NCBI GenBank assembly: GCA_018238375.1
Contig: JABCTJ010000129.1
Span: forward strand, 1 to 50,540
Length of the DNA: 50,540 nucleotides
Reading direction: 5' to 3'
Source of the DNA: Candidatus Thorarchaeota archaeon
Lineage (GTDB): Archaea > Asgardarchaeota > Thorarchaeia > Thorarchaeales > Thorarchaeaceae
The notes beneath the pieces were generated by a model, which saw only the letters and a program-made list of their open reading frames with translations, did not search any database and had not been told where the DNA came from. Below, one piece after another: positions 10,199 through 39,923 of the stretch. The stretch's first letter is position 1. Every line of letters starts with the position of its first letter. The translations under genes and the position numbers were made by a program.

Positions 10199-11605
10199 TC
10201 AAAGCTTTCCTATTTGTTGAAGAAACTTGGAGCGAACACGAATTCCATTGAGCATCTGCACTGCTTCTTCTATTGTATCGCCTACAGGAATGCCATTGAG
10301 CTCGAAGCCTCTCAGGATTACTTCATACTTGTCCAAGTATGGAACATAAGCGACGACGCATTTGTTGAATTGCTTTGTAACATTCGCTACTCTCGCTCCA
10401 ATCTGAAGTGATATTCCTGGAGCGTACGGTAGGAGCAACAGCAATGCGGAATCTATGTAGTCCAAGCCGAGCATGATCCTAAGCACTTGTTCGTAGTCGA
10501 CATCAGCTGCACTTCCCGTAAGGTCAATCGGATTTCTGAATGAGGCAATCCCTCTGTACGCAGGGGTCATCACTTCCCTCATGGCTTCTTGGTCTTCATT
10601 GCTGAACGATGGGAATTCTAGGCCATAGAATGACGCCTCATCACTGGCAATAACGCCGTGACCACCGGATACGGTCATCACTCCAACTCGAGAGCCTTTC
10701 ATCAAGCGGGGATTAAATGAGAATACTTTGGCGTAAGCCATGGTTTCATCTTCATCGACAGCTTGGATTATTCCGTATTGCTTGAAAGCGGCAGCTGCTA
10801 TAACCGAGTTCCCGGCAAGGGCTGAAGTGTGACTTTGTGTCGCTCGATGTCCGGCTTCCGAGTCTCCTCCCTTCAGAACAATCACAGGTTTTCTTGGTGC
10901 GACTTCCGCGCAAGCTTCAACGAACTCTCGTCCCTCGTTGGGACCAAAACCTTCGATATAGGCCAGAATGACTCGCACGTTCTTATCTTTGCCAAAATGC
11001 TTGATGAAGTCGGTCACGTTCGTCTGAGCCGAGTTGCCGATGGAAATCGCTGCTGCGATTCCCAAATCGCGAGACGCAAACTCCTCAAGTCGTTCAACGA
11101 GCCATCCTCCACTCTGAGAGATAATTGCCACGTTTCCCCTCAATGGTCGAGCAACTCTTTCAGAAGGCAGGAAAAACGTATCAAGCTTGTCAGGCACAAA
11201 CACGCCAATACAATTTGGCCCTACCATCGTTATTTTGTGTTTTTTGGCGACATCGATAATTTCTTTTTGCAAACCTGCACCTGCGGGACCTATTTCACTG
11301 AAGCCTCCAGACACGACTATGGCGGAAGGGATCTTCTTGCTTCCACATTGTTCAAGTATTCCGGGTACATATTTGGACGGAACTGAGATGACGGCGAGGT
11401 CGATATCATCCGGAGCTTCCAGAATCGATTTGTAAACTTTCTGTCCTTCCACCGTTCCTCCTTTCGGGTTGATTGGGAACGTAGGGATGCCATTCTCAAA
11501 ACATAATTTCCGGAAGATGACGTTTCCGGGGGAGAATGGATTCGATGTGCTAACACCAACAACTGCTGTCGCTTTAGGACTAAGCATCTTCTCTAGACCA
11601 GACAT
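10199..11605 (-). CDS. ADP-forming acetyl-CoA synthetase alpha subunit / CoA-binding acyl-CoA synthetase
   Basis: 468 aa. It has an N-terminal CoA-binding Rossmann segment (PKATAVVGVS...INPKGG), ISQSGG and a phosphohistidine-loop-like QSHTSALAG, as in archaeal ACD alpha. An 80-nt upstream gap with an A/T-rich element suggests it has its own promoter. Confidence 0.85.
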   Translation of the reverse strand: MSGLEKMLSPKATAVVGVSTSNPFSPGNVIFRKLCFENGIPTFPINPKGGTVEGQKVYKSILEAPDDIDLAVISVPSKYVPGILEQCGSKKIPSAIVVSGGFSEIGPAGAGLQKEIIDVAKKHKITMVGPNCIGVFVPDKLDTFFLPSERVARPLRGNVAIISQSGGWLVERLEEFASRDLGIAAAISIGNSAQTNVTDFIKHFGKDKNVRVILAYIEGFGPNEGREFVEACAEVAPRKPVIVLKGGDSEAGHRATQSHTSALAGNSVIAAAAFKQYGIIQAVDEDETMAYAKVFSFNPRLMKGSRVGVMTVSGGHGVIASDEASFYGLEFPSFSNEDQEAMREVMTPAYRGIASFRNPIDLTGSAADVDYEQVLRIMLGLDYIDSALLLLLPYAPGISLQIGARVANVTKQFNKCVVAYVPYLDKYEVILRGFELNGIPVGDTIEEAVQMLNGIRVRSKFLQQIGKL

Positions 11606-11685: not shown

Positions 11686-12750
11686 CTATGGTTTTATCTG
11701 GGCAAGTATCTCTCTGAATCTGGGTTCAGCAAGGAGCGCGTGTTGTAGTTTACAGAGCAGCTTTGTGGCCTCAGCGTAGATGACTTGTTTAGCTGGGTCG
11801 GTGGCCGTTTCTGCATCATGGAGGGTTTCCTCACACCGCTGATTGAACCGCTTTATGATTCGCTTCTCCAAATCAGGTCCACCCCAATCAAAACCATCGA
11901 ATATCATCTGTGCCTCTGAAACCTTGTCTGCAGGTTTGGGAGTTGCACCACTGAGGACACCTTCGAGTCCGGAGAAGTACTTTGATACTGCTCTCTCAAC
12001 GCGCTCGGTTTCCGAAGGGTCCAAGTAGATCTCAGCAGGTCGTTTCTTGGACAGATCTTGCAGAAGTCTTGCACCTGGAGCTTCAGTCAATAGAGTCTTC
12101 ACTATCTGAGATGCAATCTTTGCAGGTATTTCAATGATCTCGCTGGCGTAAGGTGAGTTTGATTTGTACTTGTGAAGGTCTCTTACAACCTCTAGCCAGA
12201 AAGTAGGCAATAGCACGTGGCATCGCTTGGAATACTGTTTAATTAGCCGTTGAGTTTTTCCTATCAAACCCCACTCGTCGTCCTCGACCTGCACCTTTCT
12301 GAAAGGTTCTGAAGGCGCTGGAGCTGTGCCCTCAACCAAGGGGACAACATTGGATGTTCCTGTAAAAGGAGTTGAACCCCCAGCAGACCTAGTACTGTCT
12401 TCAAGGAGCGATAATATCTCTTGAGTTGGACTTCCGCGGACCTCAGCTTTCTTTGCGATAACAGAGAGCTTCGGAAGGAGGCTCTCTATCTGAGAGAGTC
12501 TTTTCACTATCAAGCCCATGATGTTTGCGGTGGAAGAGGGTATGCCTTCTGAAGTGGTAGCATCCTCCATCCATTTCCGGGTTCTCTTTAACCCTTGAGT
12601 TAGTGAGTCCACCCTGTCCGGGTCTATGCTACCTTCAATCTGGGAACTCAACAGGAAGTGAATCAGTGTGGAATTCAGTGTGGCAATTAGGAGAAGCCTA
12701 TCAACCAATTCATCCATCGGAAACGGTTCGCTCAATAGGTCACCATCCAC
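11686..12750 (-). CDS. hypothetical alpha-helical protein, third gene of the FtsZ/tubulin-like operon
   Basis: 354-aa ORF. Its GTG start (12750-12748) directly abuts the TAA stop (12753-12751) of the upstream GTPase gene. It has two helical regions separated by a Ser/Thr/Pro/Gly-rich linker (about aa 120-160), no TM segment, and no family that I recognise. Confidence 0.7.
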   Translation of the reverse strand: MDGDLLSEPFPMDELVDRLLLIATLNSTLIHFLLSSQIEGSIDPDRVDSLTQGLKRTRKWMEDATTSEGIPSSTANIMGLIVKRLSQIESLLPKLSVIAKKAEVRGSPTQEILSLLEDSTRSAGGSTPFTGTSNVVPLVEGTAPAPSEPFRKVQVEDDEWGLIGKTQRLIKQYSKRCHVLLPTFWLEVVRDLHKYKSNSPYASEIIEIPAKIASQIVKTLLTEAPGARLLQDLSKKRPAEIYLDPSETERVERAVSKYFSGLEGVLSGATPKPADKVSEAQMIFDGFDWGGPDLEKRIIKRFNQRCEETLHDAETATDPAKQVIYAEATKLLCKLQHALLAEPRFREILAQIKP

Positions 12751-14145
12751 TTACTCGATTTGCGTGGCACTGTCTCCAGGAGTCATGTAGTAGCTGAACA
12801 GTTCTCTGAAATCAGCGATTGCACTGACGAGCTCCTTACGAGTCGTACCCTTCGACCTCATGAACCAGCTCTGTTTCAACGGGGATGGTCCACTGTGGAG
12901 ATTTACTAGCTGCGTGGCCTCGTTGATAATTTTAGTGAGTTCAGGTATCTTGGGCAAGCCTAAAAGCAGTAGTAGATCGGTGGGGGGGTCCTCGATGAAA
13001 TGCTGCACATAGCAAGGAGTTATGGCGGCCCCAGGTGCAATGAACTTGTTTAATGCATCCTTGAGATGCATGCCATACTCAGCTTTTGCAACGTGTTTTG
13101 GTCCTGTTAGAACGTAGTAGACACTCTCAGCATTTGGCTCTTCTCCAATGTCGGCATAAGAGCACTCTTTGACAGCATAGTCAATCATTGTCATTAACTG
13201 CTTGGGCATGCTTCCCGCATCAGGAATCAGGCCAATATCCTTGTATAGTGCTGGCACGACAACTGGGTCCAGCTTCCTGGCATAATCCGCAAGGTCCGTA
13301 GTTGGGAACACATCCTTGTTGGCCTCATATACGCCGGGTGAAAGCATTGCTTCAATCACATCGATGGCCAGAGGGTTCACAAGCTCCACGAAGGCCTGCT
13401 CGGTCCTTACATCTAGGTCTGCGGCTTCGTCCAAGGTAGAGGGCACCATCGTTTCTATTTGATTGATGTTGGCGATATCGACGTCCAGTTCCCTCTGAAG
13501 ATAGTCCACAGTATCAGCCTTTCTTGATTGGATAATTCGCTTTAACATTGTACGATTGCTCAGGAGAATAGTAAGGTCTGCTCCTCGCTCTTGTAGTTGC
13601 GCGCGAAGGAGTTTTGAAACCGCCCAGATGGAGTTCAGAGCTTCGCTAGATTGGCCTTCAAATGGAAGAACACCGATCACGTACACGAAGATGCGACGTC
13701 CTTCTTCTTCTTGGAACCTCTGCTTCAGAGCTTCGATGATGGCCGGTGTACCACCACATCCTGTACCCCCGCCAAGACTGGTGAATATGCAGAATCCTGA
13801 TACGCCTTCAAACCCGAGGTCCGCTAGCTGATTAAAGATGATGTCCTTTGACTCCAATACTGAGTTGTATCCATCCATGAATCTTCCACCGACGCCTATC
13901 TCACTAGCGCCGTATAGGAGCGTGTTCTCCTTTGGTACACCATACTTCGAGCGGACCTTGGTGATGTCTGCTCTGTCAGTATTTATGAGCATGTAGCCTC
14001 TGACTCTTGACGGTAGCCGCTTGTCTCGACTAGTCTTCAGATATGATCCAACAATATTAGAACCACATTCGCCAATTCCAATAGCGAATACTTCTGCGGC
14101 TCGTGTTTCATCAGATTCAGCGTCCTTTCCTGTAAATCTCTGCAT
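12751..14145 (-). CDS. divergent FtsZ/tubulin-superfamily GTPase
   Basis: 464 aa. Features seen are a G-box GIGECGSN (14056-14079), LINTD, the tubulin signature GGGTGCGG (13750-13773, verified by back-translation), VLPFEGQ (FtsZ T5-like), LLSNRTML (H7-region N) and a later acidic TTDLADY. AGGAG lies about 9 nt upstream of ATG 14145. Confidence 0.8.
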   Translation of the reverse strand: MQRFTGKDAESDETRAAEVFAIGIGECGSNIVGSYLKTSRDKRLPSRVRGYMLINTDRADITKVRSKYGVPKENTLLYGASEIGVGGRFMDGYNSVLESKDIIFNQLADLGFEGVSGFCIFTSLGGGTGCGGTPAIIEALKQRFQEEEGRRIFVYVIGVLPFEGQSSEALNSIWAVSKLLRAQLQERGADLTILLSNRTMLKRIIQSRKADTVDYLQRELDVDIANINQIETMVPSTLDEAADLDVRTEQAFVELVNPLAIDVIEAMLSPGVYEANKDVFPTTDLADYARKLDPVVVPALYKDIGLIPDAGSMPKQLMTMIDYAVKECSYADIGEEPNAESVYYVLTGPKHVAKAEYGMHLKDALNKFIAPGAAITPCYVQHFIEDPPTDLLLLLGLPKIPELTKIINEATQLVNLHSGPSPLKQSWFMRSKGTTRKELVSAIADFRELFSYYMTPGDSATQIE

Positions 14146-14163: not shown

Positions 14164-16860
14164 CTATCCTCGTTTCTCAACCATTGTTTCGGCGATTTCT
14201 TTCAACGCCCAGCCGAGATAGGAACTGATGTCCTCTCTGCTGTAGGTTTCTCTAATCTTCCGAGTTGCGTCATCAATGAATTTGTTGCGGTCATCTAGAG
14301 AAGCCGCTGGACTAAAGCCAGCCATAAACATCTTCATTGATTTATGCCATTCATTCATCTTGCTTGCTTTCTCAACCCAGCCCTCTCTTAACTCAGCTAC
14401 CTTGTTGAAATGTCTAATTGCGTCGTCAAGGGTTTCAGATTCTTCCAGCTTCTTTTCTGTTTCTTGAAGTTCTTTTAGAGGGTAAATTTTCTTACTGAAA
14501 TCATCGGGATGGCTTTCATACACACGTGTTATGGTCGAGTGATATTTGCTCCTTTTCTTGAGATTCTCCACGTGATTCTCTCCATCCTTCTGAGATATCC
14601 CCTTGACAATGGAGAGCATCTCATCCTGGATTGTTGCAAGAGTGAGACACACGGTAAGTGCCTCATTCACGTGTTGAGACTCCGCAGAGAGCTGTTCCGG
14701 AACCTTCTCCAGCAGCGTTTTCAGACGTTCCACGGTTTCTGGCATCCCTTGGTCTTCAAACAACGTGACCGCACTCTTGAGTTGCTCGTATGACTCGTTG
14801 GCTCTGTCCTTTATTTTGTCTTGGACTTTTGTTGAGGTTGTGAGAGCCCTAATCCTATCGAAGTACTCAGCGGCATCCTCTAGCTCCTGAGGGGGCTTGG
14901 AGATGATCTTGTCAAGAACTTTCAGTTCCTTAGTCAGGTCAACGCCAATCGCTTCAGCGCGCCCGAAGGATGTCTTTAGCTCCACCGTTTCCGTATTGAG
15001 GGCTTCAATAACCTTCGCGGTGATCTTGTGTTCATAGAGCTCGACCATTTTACGTGCAATGGCTGGGAGACTAAACACGGTGTCAGCCGCAATGCTCACA
15101 GAGTTGAGTTCACCAATCGCTTCTTGTGCTTCCTTTGGGATGTCCACTCCTGCGCCCATCAGCTTGGCTGCCGCAAGTCTAATCTTTACACCCAAGCGAT
15201 AGCGTAGGTTCTCCAAGGCGTCCTTTGCCTTAGCTAGAATGGCTTCCTTTGTGCTTCGCATCTCAGACCGGATCTCGCCAAATTCCTCCATAACACCAAT
15301 GCGATTCTTGGCTTCGTCGAGCTCGCTGATAATAGGCATGAAAATCTCTGCGTAAGCAGGTTTGATTGTTTGCAAGTCTGATATTATCGCATCTATCTCT
15401 TGGCCTGCAGCCTCTCGGAATGTGCCAACTCCACTCTCGACAGCTTTTCTAAGGTTCGCCAAGGATTCAAGGAGAAATACGGTTCCACCTTCCAGTTCCT
15501 CGACCTTTGGAGCTTTCTTACTCAGTTGCGCGTAGTCTAGGACCTTATCTGCTGATGTTGCTAGTTCGTTGAACCTGGTGATATACGACCGGATCTGTTC
15601 TGTGATGTTCTTGTTATATTCGTCCACCATTGATTTGGCTTTGAGATGAATCTTTATCATACCGTCAATCTCGGCCCGCTTCAACTCTTTCTTGGAGTCT
15701 GCAACAAACTTACGAACCGAAATGATGTCCTTGATTCCAGCATCATCAGGGAAGTCCGTTGCTTTTTCAACGTCATTGAGGGCATCAACAACTCTGTCAT
15801 TAATGGATATCTTGACCTGTCCGCTCCATTCCACCATTTTCTGATACGCGGAAAGAAGGCTCGCGATATTATCAGCTTCAGGAACGACATCAGGGGGTAG
15901 AGGAATAACATCTGCAGTAGTAGGAATCCCTCCTTCAGCAATTTTAGCTGTGACCTCATGCTTCATGTTTATGATTCTGTCACGAAGCATATTCGACATC
16001 TTCAACCTAGCGGCATCAAGTTGATTCTCAAGGCTGATGAGCGAGGTCAAGTTGTTTGCCTTGGATGAATCCCTGGCAATCACCCGAAGCTGCTTTGTGA
16101 AATCCATCGGAAGGTCCAATCCAAGACGTGAGGCAGTTTCAACTGAGGTCTGCAGTGACTCGACTTCTGTGATGAGTGAAACACTCAGCATCTTACTGAC
16201 CTCATCCTTGCGTCCATCAAGATAGGTTTCATCCGACTTCAATTTCTCCATAATGGGGATTAGGTCAGTCATGGGTAGGTTGGCGACTTCCTCGATGGAG
16301 GACGTTGTGGACACCTCTCCTCTGTCAATGGAAATGTGTCTTTCATAGGTCTCAAGAGTCCTCTTGTTTTCGTCAAGTTTTCCCTTGACTTCTCGCACGA
16401 AATCCTGATGAAGAGTAATATAATGCTGTGAGAACGTTTTCCCGTACTTGTACAACGTTTCGAAGTCATCCAAGTCTCCTGCACCTATTGACGGAAAACT
16501 CAATGAAGCCAGCGTCTTTGCTTCGGCGGGTTTGAAATACTGAATGCGTGGCAGCATTGCAGTGAAGTCTCTCTGCTCCTTTCGAAAGATCTCTGCAAAG
16601 TCTCGGACCACTCTCATGAAATCCTCTTTGATATTCTTAGACGCCTTTTCAATCTGGCCGGCAATCTTCCTCTTCTTCAGAACGCTCAACCCTGAGGTAT
16701 CAGAGAGGTCCTTGTCTAAGCCTGTGAGCTTCGCATACACATCATATAACTGACGCACCTGTCGGTCGGTCTGTTGTTCTGTGGATGGGTTGATTGATGC
16801 TAACATTCCTTTCATTTCAGAGAGTCTATCAAGTTCGCGCCGCCATACGTGACTATCCAT
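14164..16860 (-). CDS. 898-aa coiled-coil/all-helical protein, first gene of the FtsZ/tubulin-like operon
   Basis: Long uninterrupted ORF rich in K/E/L/I with heptad-like character and no TM segment or nucleotide-binding motif. GGAGG (complement of 16868-16872) lies 7 nt upstream of ATG 16860. A short motif G-[LV]-D-[LI]-[PT] recurs. Confidence 0.8.
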   Translation of the reverse strand: MDSHVWRRELDRLSEMKGMLASINPSTEQQTDRQVRQLYDVYAKLTGLDKDLSDTSGLSVLKKRKIAGQIEKASKNIKEDFMRVVRDFAEIFRKEQRDFTAMLPRIQYFKPAEAKTLASLSFPSIGAGDLDDFETLYKYGKTFSQHYITLHQDFVREVKGKLDENKRTLETYERHISIDRGEVSTTSSIEEVANLPMTDLIPIMEKLKSDETYLDGRKDEVSKMLSVSLITEVESLQTSVETASRLGLDLPMDFTKQLRVIARDSSKANNLTSLISLENQLDAARLKMSNMLRDRIINMKHEVTAKIAEGGIPTTADVIPLPPDVVPEADNIASLLSAYQKMVEWSGQVKISINDRVVDALNDVEKATDFPDDAGIKDIISVRKFVADSKKELKRAEIDGMIKIHLKAKSMVDEYNKNITEQIRSYITRFNELATSADKVLDYAQLSKKAPKVEELEGGTVFLLESLANLRKAVESGVGTFREAAGQEIDAIISDLQTIKPAYAEIFMPIISELDEAKNRIGVMEEFGEIRSEMRSTKEAILAKAKDALENLRYRLGVKIRLAAAKLMGAGVDIPKEAQEAIGELNSVSIAADTVFSLPAIARKMVELYEHKITAKVIEALNTETVELKTSFGRAEAIGVDLTKELKVLDKIISKPPQELEDAAEYFDRIRALTTSTKVQDKIKDRANESYEQLKSAVTLFEDQGMPETVERLKTLLEKVPEQLSAESQHVNEALTVCLTLATIQDEMLSIVKGISQKDGENHVENLKKRSKYHSTITRVYESHPDDFSKKIYPLKELQETEKKLEESETLDDAIRHFNKVAELREGWVEKASKMNEWHKSMKMFMAGFSPAASLDDRNKFIDDATRKIRETYSREDISSYLGWALKEIAETMVEKRG

Positions 16861-16903
16861 AAGCCTTCCTCCAGATGAAGCGTAGCTTCAAATCGGTTTG
16901 TCG

Positions 16904-16911
16904 TTTTAAAA
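16904..16911 (-). promoter_or_regulatory. putative TATA-like element (TTTTAAAA) upstream of the coiled-coil/FtsZ-like operon
   Basis: Palindromic A/T box 44-51 nt upstream of ATG 16860, in the 210-bp divergent intergenic region shared with the WD40 gene. Confidence 0.3.
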
Positions 16912-17070
16912 CTGTTCTGCGCTCAGGCCAATTGCCCCTATCTTGTTTATACACTAATCGTGTCTGTAGGTTTCTCAAAATCCGTTCGGCATTAACAGCC
17001 AAGCTAGAAACTGCCTTAAGTCATGCTACGAGAGCTAGAATTCAGCTCAAATACGAGAGAGGCCAATAAA

Positions 17071-18987
17071 ATGTCCGGTCAACAGGACAATTCTGCGCCA
17101 GCATCATCTTCGATAACTCACGAGGAAGTGACAGTGCTCGAGGTAGACGCAGTTGACATCAGTTATGATGACCGGTTTCTCTACACTGCATGCAAGGACA
17201 AGTACGTGAGAGTGTGGTCTAAGGGTGATTGGCAGCTTGTTGCAGAACTAGGTGAAACCAGCTCTGAGCCACTAGCTGTACACGTTGACAAAGACCATGT
17301 ATACGCCACTTGTGAACGCCGAGTCTATATGTGGCGAAAGGGAACTTGGGGTATGATTGGCTGGTTCGAGCTCAGCTATCATGCGTTAACCTCTGATCTT
17401 CATGGCGACTGTTTTTACATTGGTACCCGTGAAGGGCGTCTATTGTCAATTAAGAGAGATACTAACGAAACTTCTAGCTGGCCACTTCATAAGTCGGAAA
17501 TAACGATGCTCTGGTCCAATGGCAGCGTAATATGCTCAGGGACCAAGAAGGAATCTCCAGTGGTTTGGACTCCTGACCTTGATACAGCACCAACTGAGCT
17601 CGCCGTGCTTGGAAAAACAGACCACGGTACTGCTGTAACAGGCAACTCCCAGTTTGTCATGGTAGGTCTAGCCTCGGGTGATGTGAAGCTCTGGGATCGT
17701 GTTGGATGGAACCATGTTCGGACGTTGGAATCGCAGACTGATGAGCCCTTGGTTTCAATGTGGGCTAATGATCTTTATCTCGTTACGTCTTCGACTGCAG
17801 GTTTCCTAACCATTTGGGATCTTACGAAAGATGTCCAATTGGGTCAGGTCAGGAAGAATGGGAGCAAGTACGGAATGGCTTCAGTTGACCATGACCTGAT
17901 ATATGTTGCATCCTCAGAAGGACTGGTAGTCATAGGCATTTCCCTTGAAGGGCAAGCACTGGATTTGTGCAATGCTGATAATCGAATCCAAGATGACGAC
18001 CTACTCAAAACATCGCCGTACGATGTGCTAGAGTCCGTGCTGAATCATCAACGCCAAGGCGATAATCTTCTGCAGGAACGACATTTCTCCAAGGCTATGG
18101 AGGAGTATGATACTGCATTACATCTTCTAATCGACAATGTTCACGCTCTTCAAGCAGTTCCTGAGGAACGTGAAAAGCTGACACGGGAAATCATCGACAG
18201 ACGAAGTAAAGCATCACTCCGGTCTAGGATTGAAACGATTCAAACCATCAATAAGGAGATTGAACAAATATCAGATGAGCTTGAGCTTAAGGGACAAACC
18301 TTGAGGGATGAAGCGGAGATTGGCTCTCTTTGGAGTAATGCCGAGTCAGCAATTCGAGAGTCACGTATACTCTCAGAGGACAATGCTGATGACATGCTAA
18401 GCTATCAGCTAACTTACATCACGGATAATTTACAATCTGATCTTGCAGCTGCCAAGGAGAAGCTCGCGAATTATCAGCGCAAGGTGAATCAAGCGGTTGC
18501 TCTTGTTCACGGCATGGAGAATGAGTGGCGCTGGATGGAGCAGCGAAGAACTAGTCTGTCCGAGAGAAAGGGTTTCCTTGATCGAACCATCAAGCAGCTC
18601 GAAAAGCAATTTGCCAACGCAGAGTCGGACAATGAAGTCCAGGAGATTCTCAAGGATGCTCTTGGCAAGCACAAACAACTCCATGAGCAAATAGGCCGCA
18701 TCCTGTCAGCTTCAGACGATGAGCAGGAAACAGTGCTGTCCAGCAGGGAAGACGCTCTGGCAGCAATTCATAGTCTACTTAGAATAATACCGAAGAAACG
18801 TAATGCCATGCTTGCCATCTCCGATCATTCAAAGCGCCAGAAGGAATTAGAGCGACTGACTGCTGCCCTTGAAGAGGCATTGGAATCCGCAAGACATCAC
18901 GGATTGAAAGAAGAAACTAGGTCAATCCAAAATGAAATTGAGAGTGTAGCCGCACTAAACGGGGCTGCACGTACTGAGAACACGTGA
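17071..18987 (+). CDS. WD40 beta-propeller protein with a long C-terminal coiled coil
   Basis: The track ORF starts at 17023; I prefer ATG 17071 (MSGQQDNS). The N-terminal ~300 aa contain repeated WD-like strand endings (YVRVWS, VYMWRK, VKLWD, LTIWDL). The C-terminal ~330 aa are helical and coiled-coil, with one TPR-like stretch (FSKAMEEYDTALHLL). Confidence 0.8.
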   Translation: MSGQQDNSAPASSSITHEEVTVLEVDAVDISYDDRFLYTACKDKYVRVWSKGDWQLVAELGETSSEPLAVHVDKDHVYATCERRVYMWRKGTWGMIGWFELSYHALTSDLHGDCFYIGTREGRLLSIKRDTNETSSWPLHKSEITMLWSNGSVICSGTKKESPVVWTPDLDTAPTELAVLGKTDHGTAVTGNSQFVMVGLASGDVKLWDRVGWNHVRTLESQTDEPLVSMWANDLYLVTSSTAGFLTIWDLTKDVQLGQVRKNGSKYGMASVDHDLIYVASSEGLVVIGISLEGQALDLCNADNRIQDDDLLKTSPYDVLESVLNHQRQGDNLLQERHFSKAMEEYDTALHLLIDNVHALQAVPEEREKLTREIIDRRSKASLRSRIETIQTINKEIEQISDELELKGQTLRDEAEIGSLWSNAESAIRESRILSEDNADDMLSYQLTYITDNLQSDLAAAKEKLANYQRKVNQAVALVHGMENEWRWMEQRRTSLSERKGFLDRTIKQLEKQFANAESDNEVQEILKDALGKHKQLHEQIGRILSASDDEQETVLSSREDALAAIHSLLRIIPKKRNAMLAISDHSKRQKELERLTAALEEALESARHHGLKEETRSIQNEIESVAALNGAARTENT

Positions 18988-19047: not shown

Positions 19048-19677
19048 TCACCCGGCATCAGACTCGATGTCGAAGTCATCGTCGAACCCTAGCATCGCTT
19101 GACGCACGATGTCTATCCAATCCAATGTATCGTCTTCAAGTGTTGGATCTAGCGCAAGAGCATGATCTGCTGCGACAAGTGCGGCCTCAAAATTCTCCAA
19201 GATAAAATAGCATATGGCACAGTTGTGCCACCCCCTTGCTGAGTTAGGCTCCAATGAAAGCGCCTTGCCAAGCGCATCTAACGCGTCTTTCCATTGCTCA
19301 TTAGCCATGAAAGCGGCAGCCAATAGATGCCAGTCACGACCATTTCTAGGCTTGAGACGAAGGCTTTTGTGCAAGGCTTCCACGCCCTCACTACTTTCAT
19401 TGAGAAGTAGATGTAAGAACCCCTTCTCACCCCACGCAATCTGCGAGTTGGGCTCGATACGAATGATGTGGTTCAGGGCCTCAATCGCTTTGTCTGGTCT
19501 CTTCAACTCTAGATTGCAGGCAAAGACGCTCTCCCACATGGGTTTGTTATTGGGATCAACTGTAAGCCCCTGTTCTAATGTGACAATAGCCTGCTGATAC
19601 TGGGCATTCTTAATGAAACAAGCCGCCTGATTAAGAATGCTGCCTGAGCCTTGACATTCTTGATTTGGTTTACTCAA
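19048..19677 (-). CDS. tetratricopeptide-repeat (TPR) protein
   Basis: 209 aa with 5-6 tandem 34-aa units showing the A/L/P pattern (AIVTLEQGLTVDPNN, AIEALNHIIRIEPNS, ALHKSLRLKPRN, ALGKALSLEPNS, AADHALALDPT). Confidence 0.85.
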   Translation of the reverse strand: MSKPNQECQGSGSILNQAACFIKNAQYQQAIVTLEQGLTVDPNNKPMWESVFACNLELKRPDKAIEALNHIIRIEPNSQIAWGEKGFLHLLLNESSEGVEALHKSLRLKPRNGRDWHLLAAAFMANEQWKDALDALGKALSLEPNSARGWHNCAICYFILENFEAALVAADHALALDPTLEDDTLDWIDIVRQAMLGFDDDFDIESDAG

Positions 19678-36210: not shown

Positions 36211-37101
36211 CTAGATTTCAGATATATCGTTGGGAAATTCATCAATATTCAACGGACTGACCAAGAGCCCTTCAGATGTGACTTTCAAGACCACACGCCG
36301 ACCTAAGTTCGCCAGTCTACGAACAGTTTCCGGGAGTACCATCCGCCCTTTCGCATCAATCTCGGTTATGTCACCGTACAGAGTGTGGCGCTGCCCCTCA
36401 ATGAGCCCATCTCTGATGTGAAGAATCCTGTCGGCGTATGATGACACTCTTGGATTATGAGTCACGTTTACAATGGTCGTGTCGAACTCACGGTTGCTCA
36501 TCTTTAGTGCGTTCATGACCATCTCGGTGGTTTCGGTGTCAAGCTCGCCGGTTACCTCGTCAGCTAGGAGAAGCTCAGGCTTATTGGCCAGAGCCACGCA
36601 TATCGCGACTCTTTGATTCTCGCCACCGGACATCTGATGGGGTTTGTGATTCATCCTGTGCTGCATTTCGAAGGTTGTGAGAAGCATTCTAGCTCTCTCG
36701 TCTGCGGCTCCCTTGGGTGCTCCAGCTAACCTCATGGGGAGCTTAACATTCTTCAATGCGTTCAAGCCTGGCACCAAATTCCCTGTCTGCCAGACGAATC
36801 CGACCTTCTGCCTGCGATACATCATAGATCGCTTGTCGTCGAGAAGCGTGAGGCTATGTCCGTCGAAGAGTATTTGTCCTGCGGTAGGCTTGTCAAGGGC
36901 ACCTATCATTTTCAGGAGCGTGGACTTCCCGGAACCGCTTGGGCCTACAATGGACAGGAATTCTCCTCTCTTGACTTCAAAGTCCATGCCACGAAGAGCA
37001 ATGACTTCTTTTATTCCTCGTTTGTAAACCTTCATCAGGTCTCGCACGACGACTTTGTTCTCCATCGCAATTTGTTCTAGGTCTTCTGTCATAATGTTCA
37101 C
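36211..37101 (-). CDS. ABC transporter ATP-binding protein (MacB/LolD-type) with a C-terminal AbrB/SpoVT-like domain
   Basis: Walker A GPSGSGKST, Q-loop, signature MSGGENQRV, Walker B LLLADEVTGELD and H-loop VTHN are present. About 50 extra C-terminal residues (EIDAKGRMVLPETVRRLANLGRRVVLKVTSEGLLVSP) resemble the swapped-hairpin AbrB fold. Its start overlaps the upstream permease stop by 4 nt. Confidence 0.9.
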   Translation of the reverse strand: MNIMTEDLEQIAMENKVVVRDLMKVYKRGIKEVIALRGMDFEVKRGEFLSIVGPSGSGKSTLLKMIGALDKPTAGQILFDGHSLTLLDDKRSMMYRRQKVGFVWQTGNLVPGLNALKNVKLPMRLAGAPKGAADERARMLLTTFEMQHRMNHKPHQMSGGENQRVAICVALANKPELLLADEVTGELDTETTEMVMNALKMSNREFDTTIVNVTHNPRVSSYADRILHIRDGLIEGQRHTLYGDITEIDAKGRMVLPETVRRLANLGRRVVLKVTSEGLLVSPLNIDEFPNDISEI

Positions 37102-39923
37102 TCCGCATACTGAATTTCTTCTGCGATGTTAAGACTGAGATTCCTACGTGTAACTACGTAGGTCGCTGCCAGTGCAAAAAAGAAACTGGCGCTCAGGATT
37201 GCTGTTAGCAGCAACCAGGGAACTCCCAAGATTACTGGTAACCGAGCCCAACTGAGTGTCGAAGCCATGCCGATGTAGGCCAAGGGCATGTTGATCACAA
37301 GTGCAGTAAGGGCTAAGCCAATCACCGCGCCGACTCCTGCACCGATAAGAACTCCCAATGTTGTATCTGCAAGAACAGCTAATGCAATATCGCTTGATTG
37401 CTCGCCCAATGCTCTCAAAATTGAGAGCTGTTTCCTCATCTTTCTTACCCGCACAGCTGCAACTATCGTCATACCTGCTGTGAGGTATATGAGAGTGAAG
37501 AGCACGTTTAGTGTGTAGACACCGTATAGTGACTGTGCTGCCTTGGAATCTAGTGCTTCATCTATATCATCCAACGGTGTTTTCACGCTACCGAAGCTAT
37601 TGGGTGATATAGCGTGCAGGTCCGAAACTGCTTTCGTGTAGTTGTAACCGTCTTGAAGCTTGATGAAGAACTTCGTCACATGAGTTGTATTGAGGCAACT
37701 GTGAGCGTAATCCAAATCGATTACTATGAAATTATTAGCCATGGGCTCCCCTGGGAGATAGGTTGTAGCTCCTTGGTCACTAGAGGCCATTACGTCAACG
37801 ATTGTACAATCAGTCACATTATTCCAAGCTGGACCCCTGATACTGAGAGTTATCTGATCCGAGTAGACTGGTATGGGTATCCCAAGAAAGCTGGTTACAT
37901 AGTGACTAATGGGTTTGAAGGATGTAACAACATCAGTGTTATCCGCAGACAGCAATGGGATTGACACTTGAGGTGTGTTGTATAATGTGAAGTACGACAA
38001 CATGAATGCCGACCGTACCCATTCTTCTGGCTGCACTGCGATTACGTTGATGGAGTCGTTAGCATATTCTCTGCTACCCCATTGAGTCGTATAGTAGTAT
38101 GAGGCGTATGCATTGAACTCAAGAGCAGCGCTTGAGTGTTCCACCCCTTCGATACTGGAGATGTTCTCCAGCAGACCTAGAGTCACATTTTCAAGACCTG
38201 TCTTGACATCGATGACAACGTCTGCCCCATCTTGAAACATGTAGAGGTCCGTCATGTGATTGTAACCGGTAGTGGCGGAAATTGAAGCAAAGATGCCCGC
38301 TGCGAACACCATTGCAATGAACATGGTTCCCATCGCCTCACTCTTCTTGAAGAGTTTAACAGTTCTTGACATTAGACGGACTCCCACGGTCAGTCGCGAT
38401 TTCTCCATCTTTTCTAGGAGTCCTGCCTTGATTCTAGATGTTGGACGTGACATCAAACGTGCCAGAGATATTGTGAAGATTCCAAGAAGTGGTGCTGCAA
38501 TTATCATGTATGCCATGTATGATGCTATGTAGAATCCTCCAAAGGACATCATGAGGAGGAGTGGCATCAGAACATAACCTGACAAAGCTAATGCGAGTAG
38601 TTCAATCACGGGATTGCCCATCTCTTCAGCTTCAGCAAGGACCTCCCGCTCAATAACGCTATGCGCTTCAGTAGGAGTCATTAGAAGAGCTCTGACGGCG
38701 GCAGGCAATGCGACTATCAGCCCGACAACGAATGAGAACATGAAAACAAGAACCACAGCTGTAGGTTGTAGCAGAATGGTCATGTCCGCAAGCTGGGTCA
38801 AGTCAAAGACCATGAGTATTCGTACAGTGCTGGAAAGAAGTGCAGCAAGGGCTCCAGTGAGAACCGCTCCCAAGCTGCCAACAATGCCCGTGATTATTGC
38901 GCTACTAAGAACCCATGTGAAAGCTTGCCACCCTGATGCGCCTCTTGTCTTAAGCATCCCTATGTCTTTTCGTCGTTCATCAGCCAAGAGGTTGGAATTA
39001 TACTGAATGAGCATTATGCCCATTACAATACTTGGGATGGAAAACGCGAGAGCGATAACCCTCATTGAAGTGCTCCACATCGTATATTCATAGACCCCAT
39101 TGAGTAATCCAAATCGTCCGATTCTCACAAAGGGAAGAGCCCTATTCTCAATTGTCTTTCTCAGGTTATCCAGATTTTCAAGGGCTTGTGCGGGATCGGA
39201 ACCAATCACAATGGTGTGGTCCAGATCAACCCAAATTTTCTCTTCAATAGCATCCCATCCGGAATATCCAAGAATTCCAAAGCCATCCTCAATCCCCTGG
39301 CGAGTTGTGATTAAACGCAGAGTTGTGTCCTCTGGTTGGTTCCAGATGATCTGCTCGAAGAATATATTGGATACGAACGTACTTGTTATTCGTAGGCTGT
39401 GGTTGGTCCAAATCTCAGTGCCATTCTCATCCCAATCCCACGTCGATATTGTGTAGTTGTCACCGATTTCAAGCCCCATGTGGTTCAATGTTGCATGTTC
39501 TACATAACATGTATCATTTGTTAGCCCAGGAGCTCCTTCATCCAACTCAATGGCTTGATTGAAAGTTGTGAAGAATGACTGGTTGACGCCGAGGTATGTG
39601 TTCCTCCTGTATCTCCCGTCTTCATATGACCTCCAATCGTAAGAATCCACCACAGCAATGGTTTCTTGCTGAAGCACAGCTTCCTGTTCTGACACCATTT
39701 GTTCTATCTCTTCCATGCTGATGTCATTCTGTGCATAGAATGGTGTGGTGAATAGAATCTCCATGTCAACCTCAACATCGCTTGTCATGTCTGCGAAAAC
39801 ATGTGGTCCTGCGGCATCCATATAAAATAAGATACCACCTAGAACCCCTGCTGAAAGGGAAAATACCAGCAGCGTTGTGAGTAGTTGAGGCCCCCTGGCT
39901 GCCAAGCGTGATAATAGGAACAC
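37098..39923 (-). CDS. large FtsX/MacB-type ABC transporter permease (duplicated FtsX module)
   Basis: 941 aa. It has an N-terminal TM, a large extracytoplasmic domain and a 3-TM bundle, then a second extracytoplasmic domain and a C-terminal FtsX-like bundle (ILRALGEQSSDIALAVL...). The GTG start overlaps the upstream stop by 1 nt. Confidence 0.85.
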   Translation of the reverse strand: MFLLSRLAARGPQLLTTLLVFSLSAGVLGGILFYMDAAGPHVFADMTSDVEVDMEILFTTPFYAQNDISMEEIEQMVSEQEAVLQQETIAVVDSYDWRSYEDGRYRRNTYLGVNQSFFTTFNQAIELDEGAPGLTNDTCYVEHATLNHMGLEIGDNYTISTWDWDENGTEIWTNHSLRITSTFVSNIFFEQIIWNQPEDTTLRLITTRQGIEDGFGILGYSGWDAIEEKIWVDLDHTIVIGSDPAQALENLDNLRKTIENRALPFVRIGRFGLLNGVYEYTMWSTSMRVIALAFSIPSIVMGIMLIQYNSNLLADERRKDIGMLKTRGASGWQAFTWVLSSAIITGIVGSLGAVLTGALAALLSSTVRILMVFDLTQLADMTILLQPTAVVLVFMFSFVVGLIVALPAAVRALLMTPTEAHSVIEREVLAEAEEMGNPVIELLALALSGYVLMPLLLMMSFGGFYIASYMAYMIIAAPLLGIFTISLARLMSRPTSRIKAGLLEKMEKSRLTVGVRLMSRTVKLFKKSEAMGTMFIAMVFAAGIFASISATTGYNHMTDLYMFQDGADVVIDVKTGLENVTLGLLENISSIEGVEHSSAALEFNAYASYYYTTQWGSREYANDSINVIAVQPEEWVRSAFMLSYFTLYNTPQVSIPLLSADNTDVVTSFKPISHYVTSFLGIPIPVYSDQITLSIRGPAWNNVTDCTIVDVMASSDQGATTYLPGEPMANNFIVIDLDYAHSCLNTTHVTKFFIKLQDGYNYTKAVSDLHAISPNSFGSVKTPLDDIDEALDSKAAQSLYGVYTLNVLFTLIYLTAGMTIVAAVRVRKMRKQLSILRALGEQSSDIALAVLADTTLGVLIGAGVGAVIGLALTALVINMPLAYIGMASTLSWARLPVILGVPWLLLTAILSASFFFALAATYVVTRRNLSLNIAEEIQYAE

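What the first reader, a model, noticed from the sequence alone, without database searches (positions are those of the whole stretch)
12751..14145. FtsZ/tubulin-superfamily protein with a mosaic of FtsZ-like and tubulin-like motifs and an apparent insertion before the T7 region
The N-terminal G-box GIGECGSN resembles tubulin GQCGNQ (Cys-Gly) more than FtsZ GGGGSN. The signature loop is GGGTGCGG, with Cys where FtsZ has T and tubulin has S. In contrast, LINTD and VLPFEGQ are FtsZ/CetZ-like. After LLSNRTML there are about 80 residues before a candidate T7-like acidic motif (TTDLADYARKL, compare FtsZ N-x-D-F-A-D), implying an insertion around helix H7. The C-terminal ~170 aa are long enough for the GTPase-activating domain plus an extra tail. 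This combination is not what I know from FtsZ1/2, CetZ or true tubulins.
Basis: partly seen in the sequence, partly recalled or inferred. Interest (0 to 1): 0.7.

Follow-up and report, generated by a model that had tools for sequence, protein, structure and literature searches.

The report
Asgard tubulin-like GTPase operon
This gene encodes a member of "Asg.Tub", a little-studied tubulin/FtsZ-like protein family found only in Asgard archaea, and it always sits between two unknown partner genes, which suggests an uncharacterised filament system in the closest archaeal relatives of eukaryotes.

Summary

An AlphaFold model (pLDDT 80.7) shows the complete two-domain tubulin/FtsZ fold plus C-terminal helices. 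A 35-40-residue variable insertion lies between helices H6 and H7. The motif TTDLAD sits at the T7/H8 junction, and both aspartates are invariant.

It is not FtsZ, canonical CetZ or a true tubulin; each family's own profile fails to match it. It belongs to "Asg.Tub", a CetZ-like Asgard group published in 2023 from four sequences and never characterised.

Two things appear to be new:
- The family is widespread in Asgard archaea: more than 150 sequence clusters and 128 genome hits across Thor, Hermod, Borr, Sif, Baldr, Heimdall and Hodarchaeales.
- The gene is almost always the middle gene of a tight three-gene operon. Upstream is an 870-1170-aa low-Pro/Gly protein, probably helical. Downstream is a ~300-365-aa all-helical protein. 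Both are orphans by sequence, and the downstream one also has no structural relative in the PDB.

The likely mechanism, which is inferred, is a GTP-dependent filament former working with these two partners.

It is a new member of a known but unstudied kind, of moderate interest.

The parts
12751..14145 (-). Asg.Tub gene: 464-aa tubulin/FtsZ-superfamily GTPase
   Evidence: ORF. Pfam PF00091. Family of more than 150 clusters. AF2 model pLDDT 80.7, pTM 0.82. Foldseek matches to tubulins and CetZ at E~1e-18.
13540..14094 (-). N-terminal GTPase domain (residues 18-202)
   Evidence: PF00091 match covers residues 18-202. Rossmann-like S1-S6/H1-H6 elements appear in the model.
14056..14079 (-). T1 loop GIGECGSN (residues 23-30)
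   Evidence: G23, G25, E26, G28 and N30 are invariant; C27 is conserved in at least 90% of sequences.
13750..13773 (-). T4 signature GGGTGCGG (residues 125-132), with invariant Cys130
   Evidence: Invariant columns in 33 sequences. The Cys is also kept in the Baldr/Odin representative P0121 and in the distant relative P0124.
13543..13566 (-). S6/T6 LLSNRTML (residues 194-201), with N197 invariant
   Evidence: It aligns to the DN of CetZ T6 in hhalign.
13414..13530 (-). Family-specific insertion between H6 and H7 (residues ~206-244)
   Evidence: pLDDT is 48-67, with two short helices. Columns are gapped and variable. Removing these residues makes the hhalign alignment to CetZ contiguous. T4-to-T7 spacing is 159 against 106-107 in CetZ. 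The insertion is absent from the distant relative P0124.
13333..13413 (-). Core helix H7 (residues 245-271, FVELVNPLA...)
   Evidence: The model has a 29-residue helix at 243-271. Invariant N257 aligns with the invariant H7 Asn of CetZ.
13270..13302 (-). T7 loop/H8 motif TTDLADYARKL (residues 282-292), with D284 and D287 invariant
   Evidence: In the model it lies between H7 and S7, with H8 at 287-291. The pattern matches NxDxx[D/E] as quoted in PMC12583498.
12946..13269 (-). C-terminal (GTPase-activating) domain, S7-S10 with H9 and H10 (residues 293-400)
   Evidence: Model elements. Profile-profile alignment to the CetZ C-domain. No Pfam C-domain hit.
12793..12945 (-). Three conserved C-terminal helices (residues 401-451), then a short variable tail
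   Evidence: Model helices at 401-416, 422-432 and 436-451. W427, F428, K432 and G433 are invariant.
14164..16860 (-). Upstream partner gene: 898-aa orphan protein, probably alpha-helical
   Evidence: It lies directly upstream of the tubulin-like gene in every locus with enough flank. No Pfam, NCBIfam or PDB match. No TM segment and no internal repeats. An 18-nt spacer containing GGAG precedes the tubulin-like ATG.
11686..12750 (-). Downstream partner gene: 354-aa orphan all-helical protein
   Evidence: Its GTG start directly follows the TAA stop of the tubulin-like gene. It is conserved downstream in Thor, Hermod, Borr, Sif, Heimdall and Baldr loci. AF2 pLDDT is 79.8, and above 90 in the C-domain at residues 150-354. 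No Foldseek match in the PDB.
16867..16911 (-). Putative operon promoter and ribosome-binding region: TTTTAAAA at 16904-16911 and GGAGGA at 16867-16872
   Evidence: Read directly from the sequence. Assignment as an archaeal TATA box and a Shine-Dalgarno site is inference only.

Best explanation
The ORF encodes a member of Asg.Tub. This is an Asgard-restricted, CetZ-like branch of the tubulin/FtsZ superfamily that lies outside FtsZ, canonical CetZ and true tubulins.

Shown here:
- It has the full two-domain fold.
- All nucleotide-binding loops are intact, with family-specific Glu and Cys in T1 and Cys in T4.
- It keeps an FtsZ-style T7 motif, [T/N]-T-D-[L/I]-[A/G]-D.

Inferred:
- It binds GTP and polymerises head-to-tail into protofilaments. 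The T7/H8 aspartates of one subunit would complete the GTPase site of the next, as in FtsZ, CetZ and tubulin.
- It acts as the filament-forming core of a three-protein module. It is co-transcribed, and probably translationally coupled, with a large upstream probably helical protein and a downstream two-domain helical protein.
- The partners most likely bind, bundle, anchor or regulate the filament. The variable H6-H7 insertion and the conserved C-terminal helices are candidate docking surfaces.
- The cellular role is probably cytoskeletal, such as cell shape or membrane/protrusion remodelling, rather than FtsZ-type division.
For: Superfamily membership and fold:
- PF00091 scores 70 bits.
- The AF2 model has pLDDT 80.7 and pTM 0.82.
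- Foldseek matches Odin, gamma and BtubA tubulins and CetZ at E~1e-18, TM 0.56-0.80.
- hhalign to a CetZ profile gives probability 99.8%, E 1.8e-29, over 345 columns covering both domains.

Catalytic and nucleotide residues are invariant across 33 sequences from distant Asgard classes: G23, G25, E26, G28, N30, G125-G132, N197, N257, D284 and D287.

Identity with Asg.Tub:
- The supplementary alignment of PMC9871819 shows the same motifs in KXH77455.1, OLS30664.1, OLS26264.1 and PWI48967.1.
- The Thor AB_25 locus (L039) and the Heimdall LC_3 protein (P0113) are among my hits.

The family is discrete. An exhaustive profile search of 1.84 billion proteins finds two full-length 50%-identity representatives, at 718 and 489 bits. 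One distant relative scores 155 bits. All other full-length proteins score 74 bits or less and, with one exception (P0135), match in the GTPase domain only.

Operon:
- The up-tub-dn order is kept in all 80+ loci with sufficient flanks, including Baldrarchaeia.
- The spacers are 18 nt and 0 nt.

Constraint typical of polymer-forming proteins. The tubulin-like protein is 82-88% identical within Thor. The partners are at about 61% and 64%, and neighbouring enzymes at about 70-75%.
Against: - No biochemical or cellular data exist for any member.
- GTP binding, hydrolysis and polymerisation are inferred from conserved motifs and a monomer model only.
- The exact register of T7 is ambiguous by three residues. 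The motif-based and hhalign-based alignments differ, so either D284 or D287 could be the catalytic equivalent.
- The first T7 position is Thr rather than the usual Asn.
- Physical interaction with the partners is inferred only from gene order.
- One Hodarchaeales subclade lacks the downstream partner.
- The distant relative P0124 lacks the upstream partner.
- Neither partner has a recognisable membrane anchor or known fold, so their roles are guesses.
Confidence: 0.75

Rival explanations
1. It is simply a divergent orthologue of CetZ, the euryarchaeal cell-shape tubulin-like protein, and works exactly as CetZ does.
For: - CetZ1 is the best solved-structure match by sequence, at 48 bits with the family profile.
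- hhalign gives 99.8% probability over both domains.
- One database record names the Heimdall LC_3 homologue 'Tubulin-like protein CetZ'.
- Santana-Molina et al. conclude the group is closer to CetZ than to tubulins.
Against: - There is no hit to Pfam CetZ_C PF21011, whereas true CetZs score 1e-26 to 1e-54.
- The T1 and T4 motifs differ at positions that are invariant in CetZ: Q to E, and S to C.
- There are about 40 extra residues before H7.
- The operon is different and strictly conserved.
- Brown & Duggin 2023 place Asgard superfamily proteins among 'non-canonical' members outside the CetZ boundary.
- The best full-length proteins outside the family score 74 bits or less, against 489-718 bits within it.
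Confidence: 0.12
2. It is a close relative or ancestor-like form of true tubulin (as OdinTubulin and AtubA/B are) and forms microtubule-like tubes.
For: - Foldseek top hits include OdinTubulin, gamma-tubulin, BtubA and AtubA, with about 490 aligned columns.
- It has C-terminal helices after the second domain.
- It has a Cys in T1, as in GQCG.
- Some published trees place Asg.Tub between CetZ and tubulins.
Against: - Identity to tubulins is only 14-17%.
- Profile scores to tubulins are 25-27 bits, lower than to CetZ.
- There is no Tubulin_C hit.
- A profile of the C-terminal helices retrieves no tubulin.
- The published authors argue against tubulin affiliation on indels and mid-point rooting.
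- The Lowe/Ettema-type study uses this clade as an outgroup.
Confidence: 0.07
3. It is an extra FtsZ paralogue that takes part in Z-ring cell division.
For: - The T7 motif D-x-x-D and the strings NTD and PFEG resemble FtsZ.
- TIGR00065 gives a weak hit at E 1e-7 over residues 11-142.
Against: - TIGR00065 scores 31.6 bits against a cutoff of 295.
- There is no FtsZ_C hit.
- FtsZ structures score about 22 bits.
- There is no long disordered linker or conserved C-terminal peptide; the tail is about 10 variable residues.
- There are no division genes in the conserved neighbourhood.
Confidence: 0.04
4. It is a non-polymerising GTPase or pseudo-enzyme that has kept the fold, with the insertion blocking the longitudinal interface.
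For: - The insertion lies between H6 and H7, close to the nucleotide-side face of the subunit (inference from the fold).
- There are unusual T1 and T4 residues (E26, C27, C130).
- The first T7 position is Thr rather than Asn.
Against: - All phosphate- and base-contacting positions and both T7 aspartates are invariant over the whole family.
- Sequence constraint is very strong, higher than for neighbouring metabolic enzymes.
- The insertion is the least conserved part, and a halophilic CetZ (P0138) tolerates a similarly long T4-to-T7 spacing.
Confidence: 0.05

Closest known systems
Asg.Tub group (Santana-Molina, del Saz-Navarro & Devos 2023, Front Microbiol, PMC9871819)
   Same: It is the same family. 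The four founding sequences (Thor SMTZ1-83, Thor AB_25, Heimdall LC_3, Heimdall B3-JM-08) carry GIGECGSN, GGGTGCGG, LLSNRTML and TTDLADYARKL. It is Asgard-restricted. The C-terminal half matches no other superfamily HMM. The neighbours are unknown, coiled-coil-like genes.
   Different: Nothing differs for the protein itself. The published description rests on four sequences and calls the group scarce. Here the family is seen in more than 150 clusters and 128 species-level genomes. It has a conserved three-gene operon and a mapped H6-H7 insertion, neither of which is described there.
CetZ (Duggin et al. 2015; structures 4B46, 4B45, 3ZID)
   Same: It is the best sequence match among solved structures. 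Homology extends over both domains (hhalign probability 99.8%). It has helices after the C-terminal domain. It shares GVLP...EG in T5 and NTxxxDL after S2. The likely role is cytoskeletal rather than in division.
   Different: There is no CetZ_C Pfam match. T1 has E-C instead of Q-A/C. T4 has Cys instead of Ser. T7 is D-x-x-D instead of D-x-x-E. There are about 40 extra residues between H6 and H7. The taxon differs (Asgard, not Euryarchaeota), and so does the conserved operon.
True tubulins of Asgard archaea and bacteria (OdinTubulin 7EVB; AtubA/B 9F6T, 9HXC; BtubA/B 2BTQ)
   Same: The overall fold, including C-terminal helices, is shared, with Foldseek E~1e-18 and TM ~0.62-0.69. It has a Cys in T1.
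   Different: Identity is 14-17%. There is no Tubulin_C match. It is a single gene rather than an A/B pair. The T7 and T1 motifs differ. Published analyses use this clade as an outgroup to tubulins.
FtsZ (FtsZ1/FtsZ2 of archaea)
   Same: The T7 pattern x-x-D-[FL]-[AS]-D and the general GTPase motifs are shared.
   Different: It fails the TIGR00065 equivalog by a wide margin. It lacks FtsZ_C, GGGGxN, GGGTGTG, the linker plus C-terminal peptide, and a division-gene context.
BtubA/B-BtubC and TubZ-TubR/TubY operons (tubulin-like filament former plus dedicated partner genes)
   Same: The organisational logic is the same: a superfamily polymer encoded next to lineage-specific partner proteins that stabilise or adapt the filament.
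   Different: The partners here are unrelated in sequence. The downstream one is also unrelated in predicted fold to anything in the PDB. No TPR, DNA-binding or other known module was found.

Membership tests
Tubulin/FtsZ superfamily | GTPase domain matching Pfam PF00091 above the gathering score | tested here: met
   70 bits against a cutoff of 33, over residues 18-202.
Tubulin/FtsZ superfamily | Glycine-rich T4 signature GGGTG[ST]G | tested here: met
   GGGTGCGG at 125-132. The glycines and Thr are invariant, and Cys replaces Ser/Thr.
Tubulin/FtsZ superfamily | Two-domain fold joined by core helix H7 | tested here: met
   AF2 model pLDDT 80.7 with H7 at 243-271. Foldseek gives probability 1.00 to tubulins and CetZ over 400-500 columns.
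Tubulin/FtsZ superfamily | T7 loop/H8 acidic residues, NxDxx[D/E] | tested here: met
   TTDLAD at 282-287 lies between H7 and S7. D284 and D287 are invariant. The first residue is Thr, not Asn, and the register is uncertain by 3 residues.
Tubulin/FtsZ superfamily | GTP-dependent head-to-tail polymerisation | not testable with these tools
   This needs biochemistry or multimer modelling.
Asg.Tub (PMC9871819) | Sequence membership in the clade formed by KXH77455.1, OLS30664.1, OLS26264.1 and PWI48967.1 | tested here: met
   The same motif set appears in their supplementary alignment. The Thor AB_25 locus L039 is 86% identical. The Heimdall LC_3 protein P0113 is 51% identical over 95% of the query.
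Asg.Tub (PMC9871819) | Restriction to Asgard archaea | tested here: met
   All named hits are Asgard lineages, except two cluster members labelled Thermofilum and Bathyarchaeota.
CetZ | CetZ C-terminal domain, Pfam PF21011 | tested here: not met
   No hit at E<=1. Control CetZs P0137, P0138 and P0141 hit at 2e-26 to 2e-54.
CetZ | Conserved T1 GxGQ[AC]G and T4 GGGTGSG | tested here: not met
   Q10 and S113 are invariant in the CetZ alignment A5. This protein has E26 and C130, both invariant in its own family.
CetZ | Placement inside the canonical CetZ node, bounded by the Thermococcales CetZs | not tested
   No tree was built here. Published work places Asgard superfamily proteins among non-canonical members.
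FtsZ | NCBIfam equivalog TIGR00065 above its cutoff | tested here: not met
   31.6 bits against 295.2.
FtsZ | FtsZ_C domain, plus a disordered linker and a conserved C-terminal peptide | tested here: not met
   No FtsZ_C hit. The tail after the last helix is about 10 variable residues.
Tubulin (alpha/beta/gamma, Odin, Atub, Btub) | Tubulin_C domain PF03953 and the GQCGNQ T1 motif | tested here: not met
   No Tubulin_C hit. T1 is GECGSN. The family profile scores 25-27 bits against tubulin structures, with 14-17% identity.

The most novel reading that the evidence does not exclude
Asg.Tub and its two co-inherited orphan partners form a third, ancient tubulin-superfamily cytoskeletal system of Asgard archaea, alongside FtsZ and the true Asgard tubulins. 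On this reading it was present in the Asgard common ancestor and has dedicated filament-binding proteins, at least one of which has a fold with no PDB relative. With more than 150 sequences now available to break the long branch, the family could prove to be the closest sister lineage of artubulins plus tubulins, rather than a CetZ offshoot.
Probability: 0.3. Interest if true: 0.75.

Novelty: new member of a known kind. Interest (0 to 1): 0.5.

Why it matters
[quoted passage not shown] Their actins, true tubulins and FtsZs are being characterised. This separate tubulin-superfamily branch has so far only been a label on a tree.

The family turns out to be widespread in Asgard archaea, under very strong constraint, and locked into a three-gene operon with two unknown partner proteins. 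That makes it a concrete target for experiment:
- express the three proteins;
- test for GTP-dependent filaments and partner binding;
- localise them in enrichment cultures.

The much larger sequence set could also help resolve the unstable position of this clade between CetZ and tubulin.

Tried and rejected
1. Partner identification by sequence gave only noise. I tried Pfam, NCBIfam and PDB profile searches, as single sequences and as family alignments.
2. Foldseek of the downstream-partner model against the PDB found no meaningful match (best E 0.047, TM <=0.2).
3. The WF..KG...EL..A motif in the last helices looked like tubulin H11'-H12. A profile of residues 396-455 retrieves no tubulin or CetZ from the PDB, and the HMMER sub-alignment to OdinTubulin scored -2.1 bits. 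I dropped the idea.
4. Plain hhalign of the family against CetZ misplaces CetZ H7/T7 onto the insertion. It was repeated with residues 206-244 removed. A 3-residue register ambiguity at T7 remains.
5. A search for a membrane anchor found none. No 19-residue window exceeds KD 1.45 in any of the three proteins.
6. Self-BLAST found no internal repeats in the 898-aa partner. A crude heptad score shows only scattered short segments, so a long continuous coiled coil is not supported.
7. I asked whether the 314-aa ORF upstream in the Hodarchaeales variant is a relocated downstream partner. There is no similarity.
8. I asked whether the WD40, TPR, acetyl-CoA-synthetase-like and IPP-isomerase-like (FMN_dh) neighbours belong to the module. 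The WD40 and TPR genes are syntenic only within Thor. The acetyl-CoA-synthetase-like gene also lies downstream in four Borr/Sif loci, and the IPP-isomerase-like gene appears in one more distant locus (L063). None of them accompanies the operon in Hermod, Heimdall or Baldr loci.
Full report

The minus-strand ORF at 12751-14145 encodes 464 aa.
- GIGECGSN, residues 23-30
- LINTD, 53-57
- GGGTGCGG, 125-132
- VLPFEGQ, 159-165
- LLSNRTML, 194-201
- TTDLADYARKL, 282-292

Eighty residues separate the last two motifs, and 172 residues follow the last one.

The gene is not a chance ORF. Pfam Tubulin/FtsZ GTPase domain PF00091 matches residues 18-202 at 70 bits against a cutoff of 33. A word-indexed search of 5.8 billion proteins returns 153 clusters; the 120 listed share 48-97% identity, nearly all over the full length. 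The window comes from a Thorarchaeota genome, since loci L007-L009 from Thorarchaeota MAGs are 97-98% identical in this gene.

**2. Anatomy**

An alignment of 33 homologues spanning distant Asgard lineages (A1) shows these positions invariant:
- T1: G23, G25, E26, G28, N30 (C27 is conserved in at least 90%).
- T3 region: G84, G86, G87.
- T4: G125-G132, including C130.
- T5 region: P161, F162, Q165, E168.
- T6: N197.
- H7: N257.
- T7/H8: D284, D287.
- C-terminal helices: W427, F428, K432, G433.

An AlphaFold2 model built on A1 has mean pLDDT 80.7 and pTM 0.82. It shows:
- the Rossmann-like S1-S6/H1-H6 GTPase domain;
- a 29-residue core helix at 243-271 (H7);
- a loop ending in TTD;
- a short helix at 287-291 (H8);
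- strand 295-301 (S7);
- a second domain (H9, S8, H10, S9, S10);
- three C-terminal helices at 401-451, then a roughly 10-residue disordered tail.

Foldseek against the PDB gives probability 1.00 and E about 1e-18 to OdinTubulin, gamma-tubulin, BtubA, AtubA and the three CetZ structures. TM scores are 0.56-0.80 and identity is 14-17%.

**3. The insertion and T7**

I measured the spacing from the start of the T4 motif to the T7 aspartate:

| Group | T4-to-T7 spacing (residues) |
|---|---|
| This protein | 159 |
| Across its family | 149-163 |
| Distant relative P0124 | 131 |
| Canonical CetZ | 106-107 |
| FtsZ | 106-118 |

About 12 of the extra residues lie before T6, in the H4-S5 and H5-S6 loops. 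About 40 lie after T6.

In the model, residues ~208-242 form two short, low-confidence helices (pLDDT 48-67) between H6 and H7. In the alignment this stretch is gapped and the most variable part of the protein. Only its first half is weakly conserved, at L216 and D223.

Plain hhalign against CetZ misaligns this region. With residues 206-244 deleted, H7 aligns contiguously, and N257 falls on the invariant H7 Asn of CetZ. The profile match to the distant relative P0124 skips exactly this segment.

TTDLAD fits the superfamily hydrolysis motif NxDxx[D/E], quoted from PMC12583498, and sits at the H7-loop/H8 junction of the model.

Two alignments differ by three residues at T7. The motif-based one puts D284 and D287 on the two acidic positions. 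The hhalign one puts D284 on the CetZ Glu. The model's H8 start at 287 favours the motif-based register. Either way an invariant Asp occupies the catalytic position.

**4. What it is not**

- FtsZ: TIGR00065 scores 31.6 bits against a cutoff of 295. There is no FtsZ_C hit, and no linker or C-terminal peptide.
- Canonical CetZ: there is no hit to Pfam CetZ_C. Three control CetZs hit it at 2e-26 to 2e-54. The CetZ-invariant Q (T1) and S (T4) are replaced by family-invariant E and C.
- True tubulin: there is no Tubulin_C hit. The family profile scores 25-27 bits against tubulin structures, 48 bits against CetZ1 and 22 bits against FtsZ.
- Even so, profile-profile comparison shows clear homology to CetZ across both domains: probability 99.8%, E 1.8e-29, 345 columns, 22% identity.

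The "mosaic" motifs are not unique. GxGQCG occurs in non-canonical CetZs, including the 3ZID protein. GGGTGCG occurs in several other unnamed archaeal superfamily groups.

**5. What it is**

An exhaustive HMMER profile search of 1.84 billion 50%-identity representatives finds:
- only two full-length representatives of the family: P0091 at 718 bits, and P0121 at 489 bits, whose cluster members are labelled Baldrarchaeota/Baldrarchaeia and Odinarchaeota;
- fragments of the same family;
- one distant relative, P0124, at 155 bits;
- then a fall to 74 bits or less for other full-length proteins, which match in the GTPase domain only apart from one 491-aa protein, P0135.

The family is therefore discrete.

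Santana-Molina et al. [quoted passage not shown] Their Asgard group, Asg.Tub, has these published properties:
- it branched unstably between CetZ and tubulins;
- its C-terminal HMM matched nothing else;
- its neighbours were unknown genes with coiled-coil regions.

Their supplementary files list Asg.Tub as four proteins: Thor SMTZ1-83, Thor AB_25, Heimdall LC_3 and Heimdall B3-JM-08. The trimmed sequences read ...GIGECGSN...GGGTGCGG...LLSNRTML...TTDLADYARKL.... This ORF is therefore a member of Asg.Tub.

Other literature treats the clade only in passing. [quoted passage not shown] Brown & Duggin 2023 file Asgard superfamily proteins under non-canonical members. Full-text searches found no paper that characterises the family or its operon.

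**6. What appears to be new here**

*(a) Breadth.* Named hits come from Thor-, Hermod-, Borr-, Sif-, Baldr-, Odin-labelled, Heimdall- and Hodarchaeales MAGs. A scan of one genome per species found 128 encoding loci.

*(b) A conserved operon.* Wherever enough flanking DNA exists in the 80+ loci, the gene order is the same. A large protein of 870-1170 aa comes first, then the tubulin-like gene, then a ~300-365-aa protein. Both partners are homologous across lineages.

In the window the spacing is tight:
- The upstream gene ends in TAG, followed by 18 nt containing GGAG and then the tubulin-like ATG.
- The tubulin-like TAA stop is followed immediately by the GTG start of the downstream gene.
- A TTTTAAAA box and a GGAGGA motif precede the first gene. 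Reading these as a promoter and a ribosome-binding site is inference.

There are two exceptions:
- One Hodarchaeales subclade lacks the downstream gene.
- The distant relative P0124 lacks the upstream gene. Its downstream neighbour has an N-terminal transmembrane helix and only marginal similarity to the usual partner.

Wider synteny (WD40, TPR, acetyl-CoA-synthetase-like and IPP-isomerase-like genes) is largely confined to Thor. Only the acetyl-CoA-synthetase-like gene recurs, in four Borr/Sif loci, and the IPP-isomerase-like gene in one more distant locus (L063).

*(c) Constraint.* Identity to the window proteins:

| Gene | Within Thor | Thor vs Heimdall |
|---|---|---|
| Tubulin-like protein | 82-88% | ~55% |
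| Upstream partner | ~61% | ~21% |
| Downstream partner | ~64% | ~30% |
| Neighbouring enzymes | ~70-75% | not compared |

This pattern is expected for a self-assembling polymer with many interfaces.

**7. The partners**

Neither partner matches Pfam, NCBIfam or PDB sequences, either alone or as family profiles. Neither has a transmembrane segment.

The downstream protein was modelled with pLDDT 79.8. It has three parts:
- an N-terminal three-helix unit at residues 12-105;
- a disordered, variable linker at ~108-150;
- an all-helical C-terminal domain at 150-354 with pLDDT above 90.

That C-terminal domain carries the invariant residues D158, Y173, H178, P182, Y195, E223-A-P225, G290, E295 and R297; R228 is conserved in at least 90% of sequences. 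Foldseek finds nothing similar in the PDB (best E 0.047, TM <=0.2).

The 898-aa upstream protein is rich in E, L, K and A (37% together) and low in Pro and Gly. It has no internal repeats and only scattered short heptad-like segments.

**8. Most likely mechanism**

Shown:
- The protein has an intact tubulin/FtsZ fold.
- The nucleotide-binding loops and T7 aspartates are invariant.
- It sits in a tight operon with two co-inherited partners.

Inferred:
- It binds GTP and assembles head-to-tail into protofilaments, with the T7/H8 Asp of one subunit activating hydrolysis in the next.
- The two partners bind the filament to bundle, anchor or regulate it. The variable H6-H7 insertion and the conserved C-terminal helices are candidate docking sites.
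- The role is a non-division cytoskeletal function, by analogy with CetZ and with partner-bearing systems such as BtubABC.

The two pocket cysteines (C27, C130) and E26 might tune nucleotide chemistry or give redox sensitivity. That is speculation and was not tested.

Rivals, each with lower support, are set out in the Rival explanations section. They are a plain CetZ orthologue, a tubulin-like microtubule former, an FtsZ division paralogue, and a non-polymerising GTPase.

**9. Verdict**

The family is already in the literature as Asg.Tub, so this ORF is a new member of a known but uncharacterised kind.

The added value is threefold: the breadth of the family, the conserved three-gene operon with two orphan partners, and the mapped insertion. 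Interest is moderate (0.5). It would rise if the module proves to be a distinct Asgard filament system, or the sister lineage of tubulins.

Noticed in passing
L088:8001-10149 (Logan SRR7811641 contig, 17 kb): P0124 is a distant relative of the family, at 155 bits. It lacks the H6-H7 insertion and the upstream partner. It has lost the T1 Cys but keeps the T4 Cys and a D-x-x-D T7 motif. Its overlapping downstream 262-aa gene has an N-terminal transmembrane helix and only marginal similarity to the usual downstream partner. SMC and ScpA genes lie about 3-7 kb upstream.
   Followed up: partly
L005:3565-17347 and L006 (Hodarchaeales-type loci): A variant operon without the downstream partner. An unrelated 314-aa ORF precedes the large partner. 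About 1 kb of AT-rich sequence full of stop codons follows the tubulin-like gene, and then an ORF of more than 2600 aa.
   Followed up: partly
window 46256-47626 (-): A 456-aa protein with a Ras/Roc small-GTPase domain at residues 272-450. It has a ~270-residue N-terminal extension with no Pfam match at E<=1e-5.
   Followed up: no
window 17023-18987 (+): A 654-aa WD40 beta-propeller protein is transcribed divergently from the operon, followed by a TPR protein at 19048-19677 (-). Both are syntenic with the operon within Thorarchaeota only.
   Followed up: partly
window 37098-42685 (-): Two tandem genes of 941 and 920 aa overlap by one base. Each has FtsX-like permease domains, so they look like a MacB-type ABC transporter pair.
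   Followed up: no
window 10199-11605 (-); L069, L079, L080, L082: A gene with CoA-binding and succinyl-CoA-ligase-like domains, resembling the alpha part of ADP-forming acetyl-CoA synthetase, lies just downstream of the operon in Thor. A 36-38% identical gene occupies the same position in Borr and Sif loci, but not in Hermod, Heimdall or Baldr loci.
   Followed up: partly
P0138 (halophilic archaeon J07HX5 CetZ, 443 aa): A genuine CetZ (CetZ_C at 4e-49) has its own enlarged T4-to-T7 spacing, 155 against the usual 106-107. Long insertions in this region therefore arise independently in the superfamily.
   Followed up: no
Remote hits P0139, P0145, P0161, P0165, P0167, P0171, P0178, P0188, P0193, P0215: A recurrent group of 400-450-aa tubulin-superfamily proteins with T4 GGGTGNG. 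Several of them have T1 G[AS]GE[AG]G[GCT]R. Those I scanned had no Pfam C-domain. They may be another unnamed family.
   Followed up: no
Cluster of P0121: Members of the Baldr/Odin-type cluster are labelled Thermofilum sp. ex4484_82 and Bathyarchaeota archaeon in GenBank. This is probably mis-binning of hydrothermal MAGs, but horizontal transfer was not excluded.
   Followed up: no
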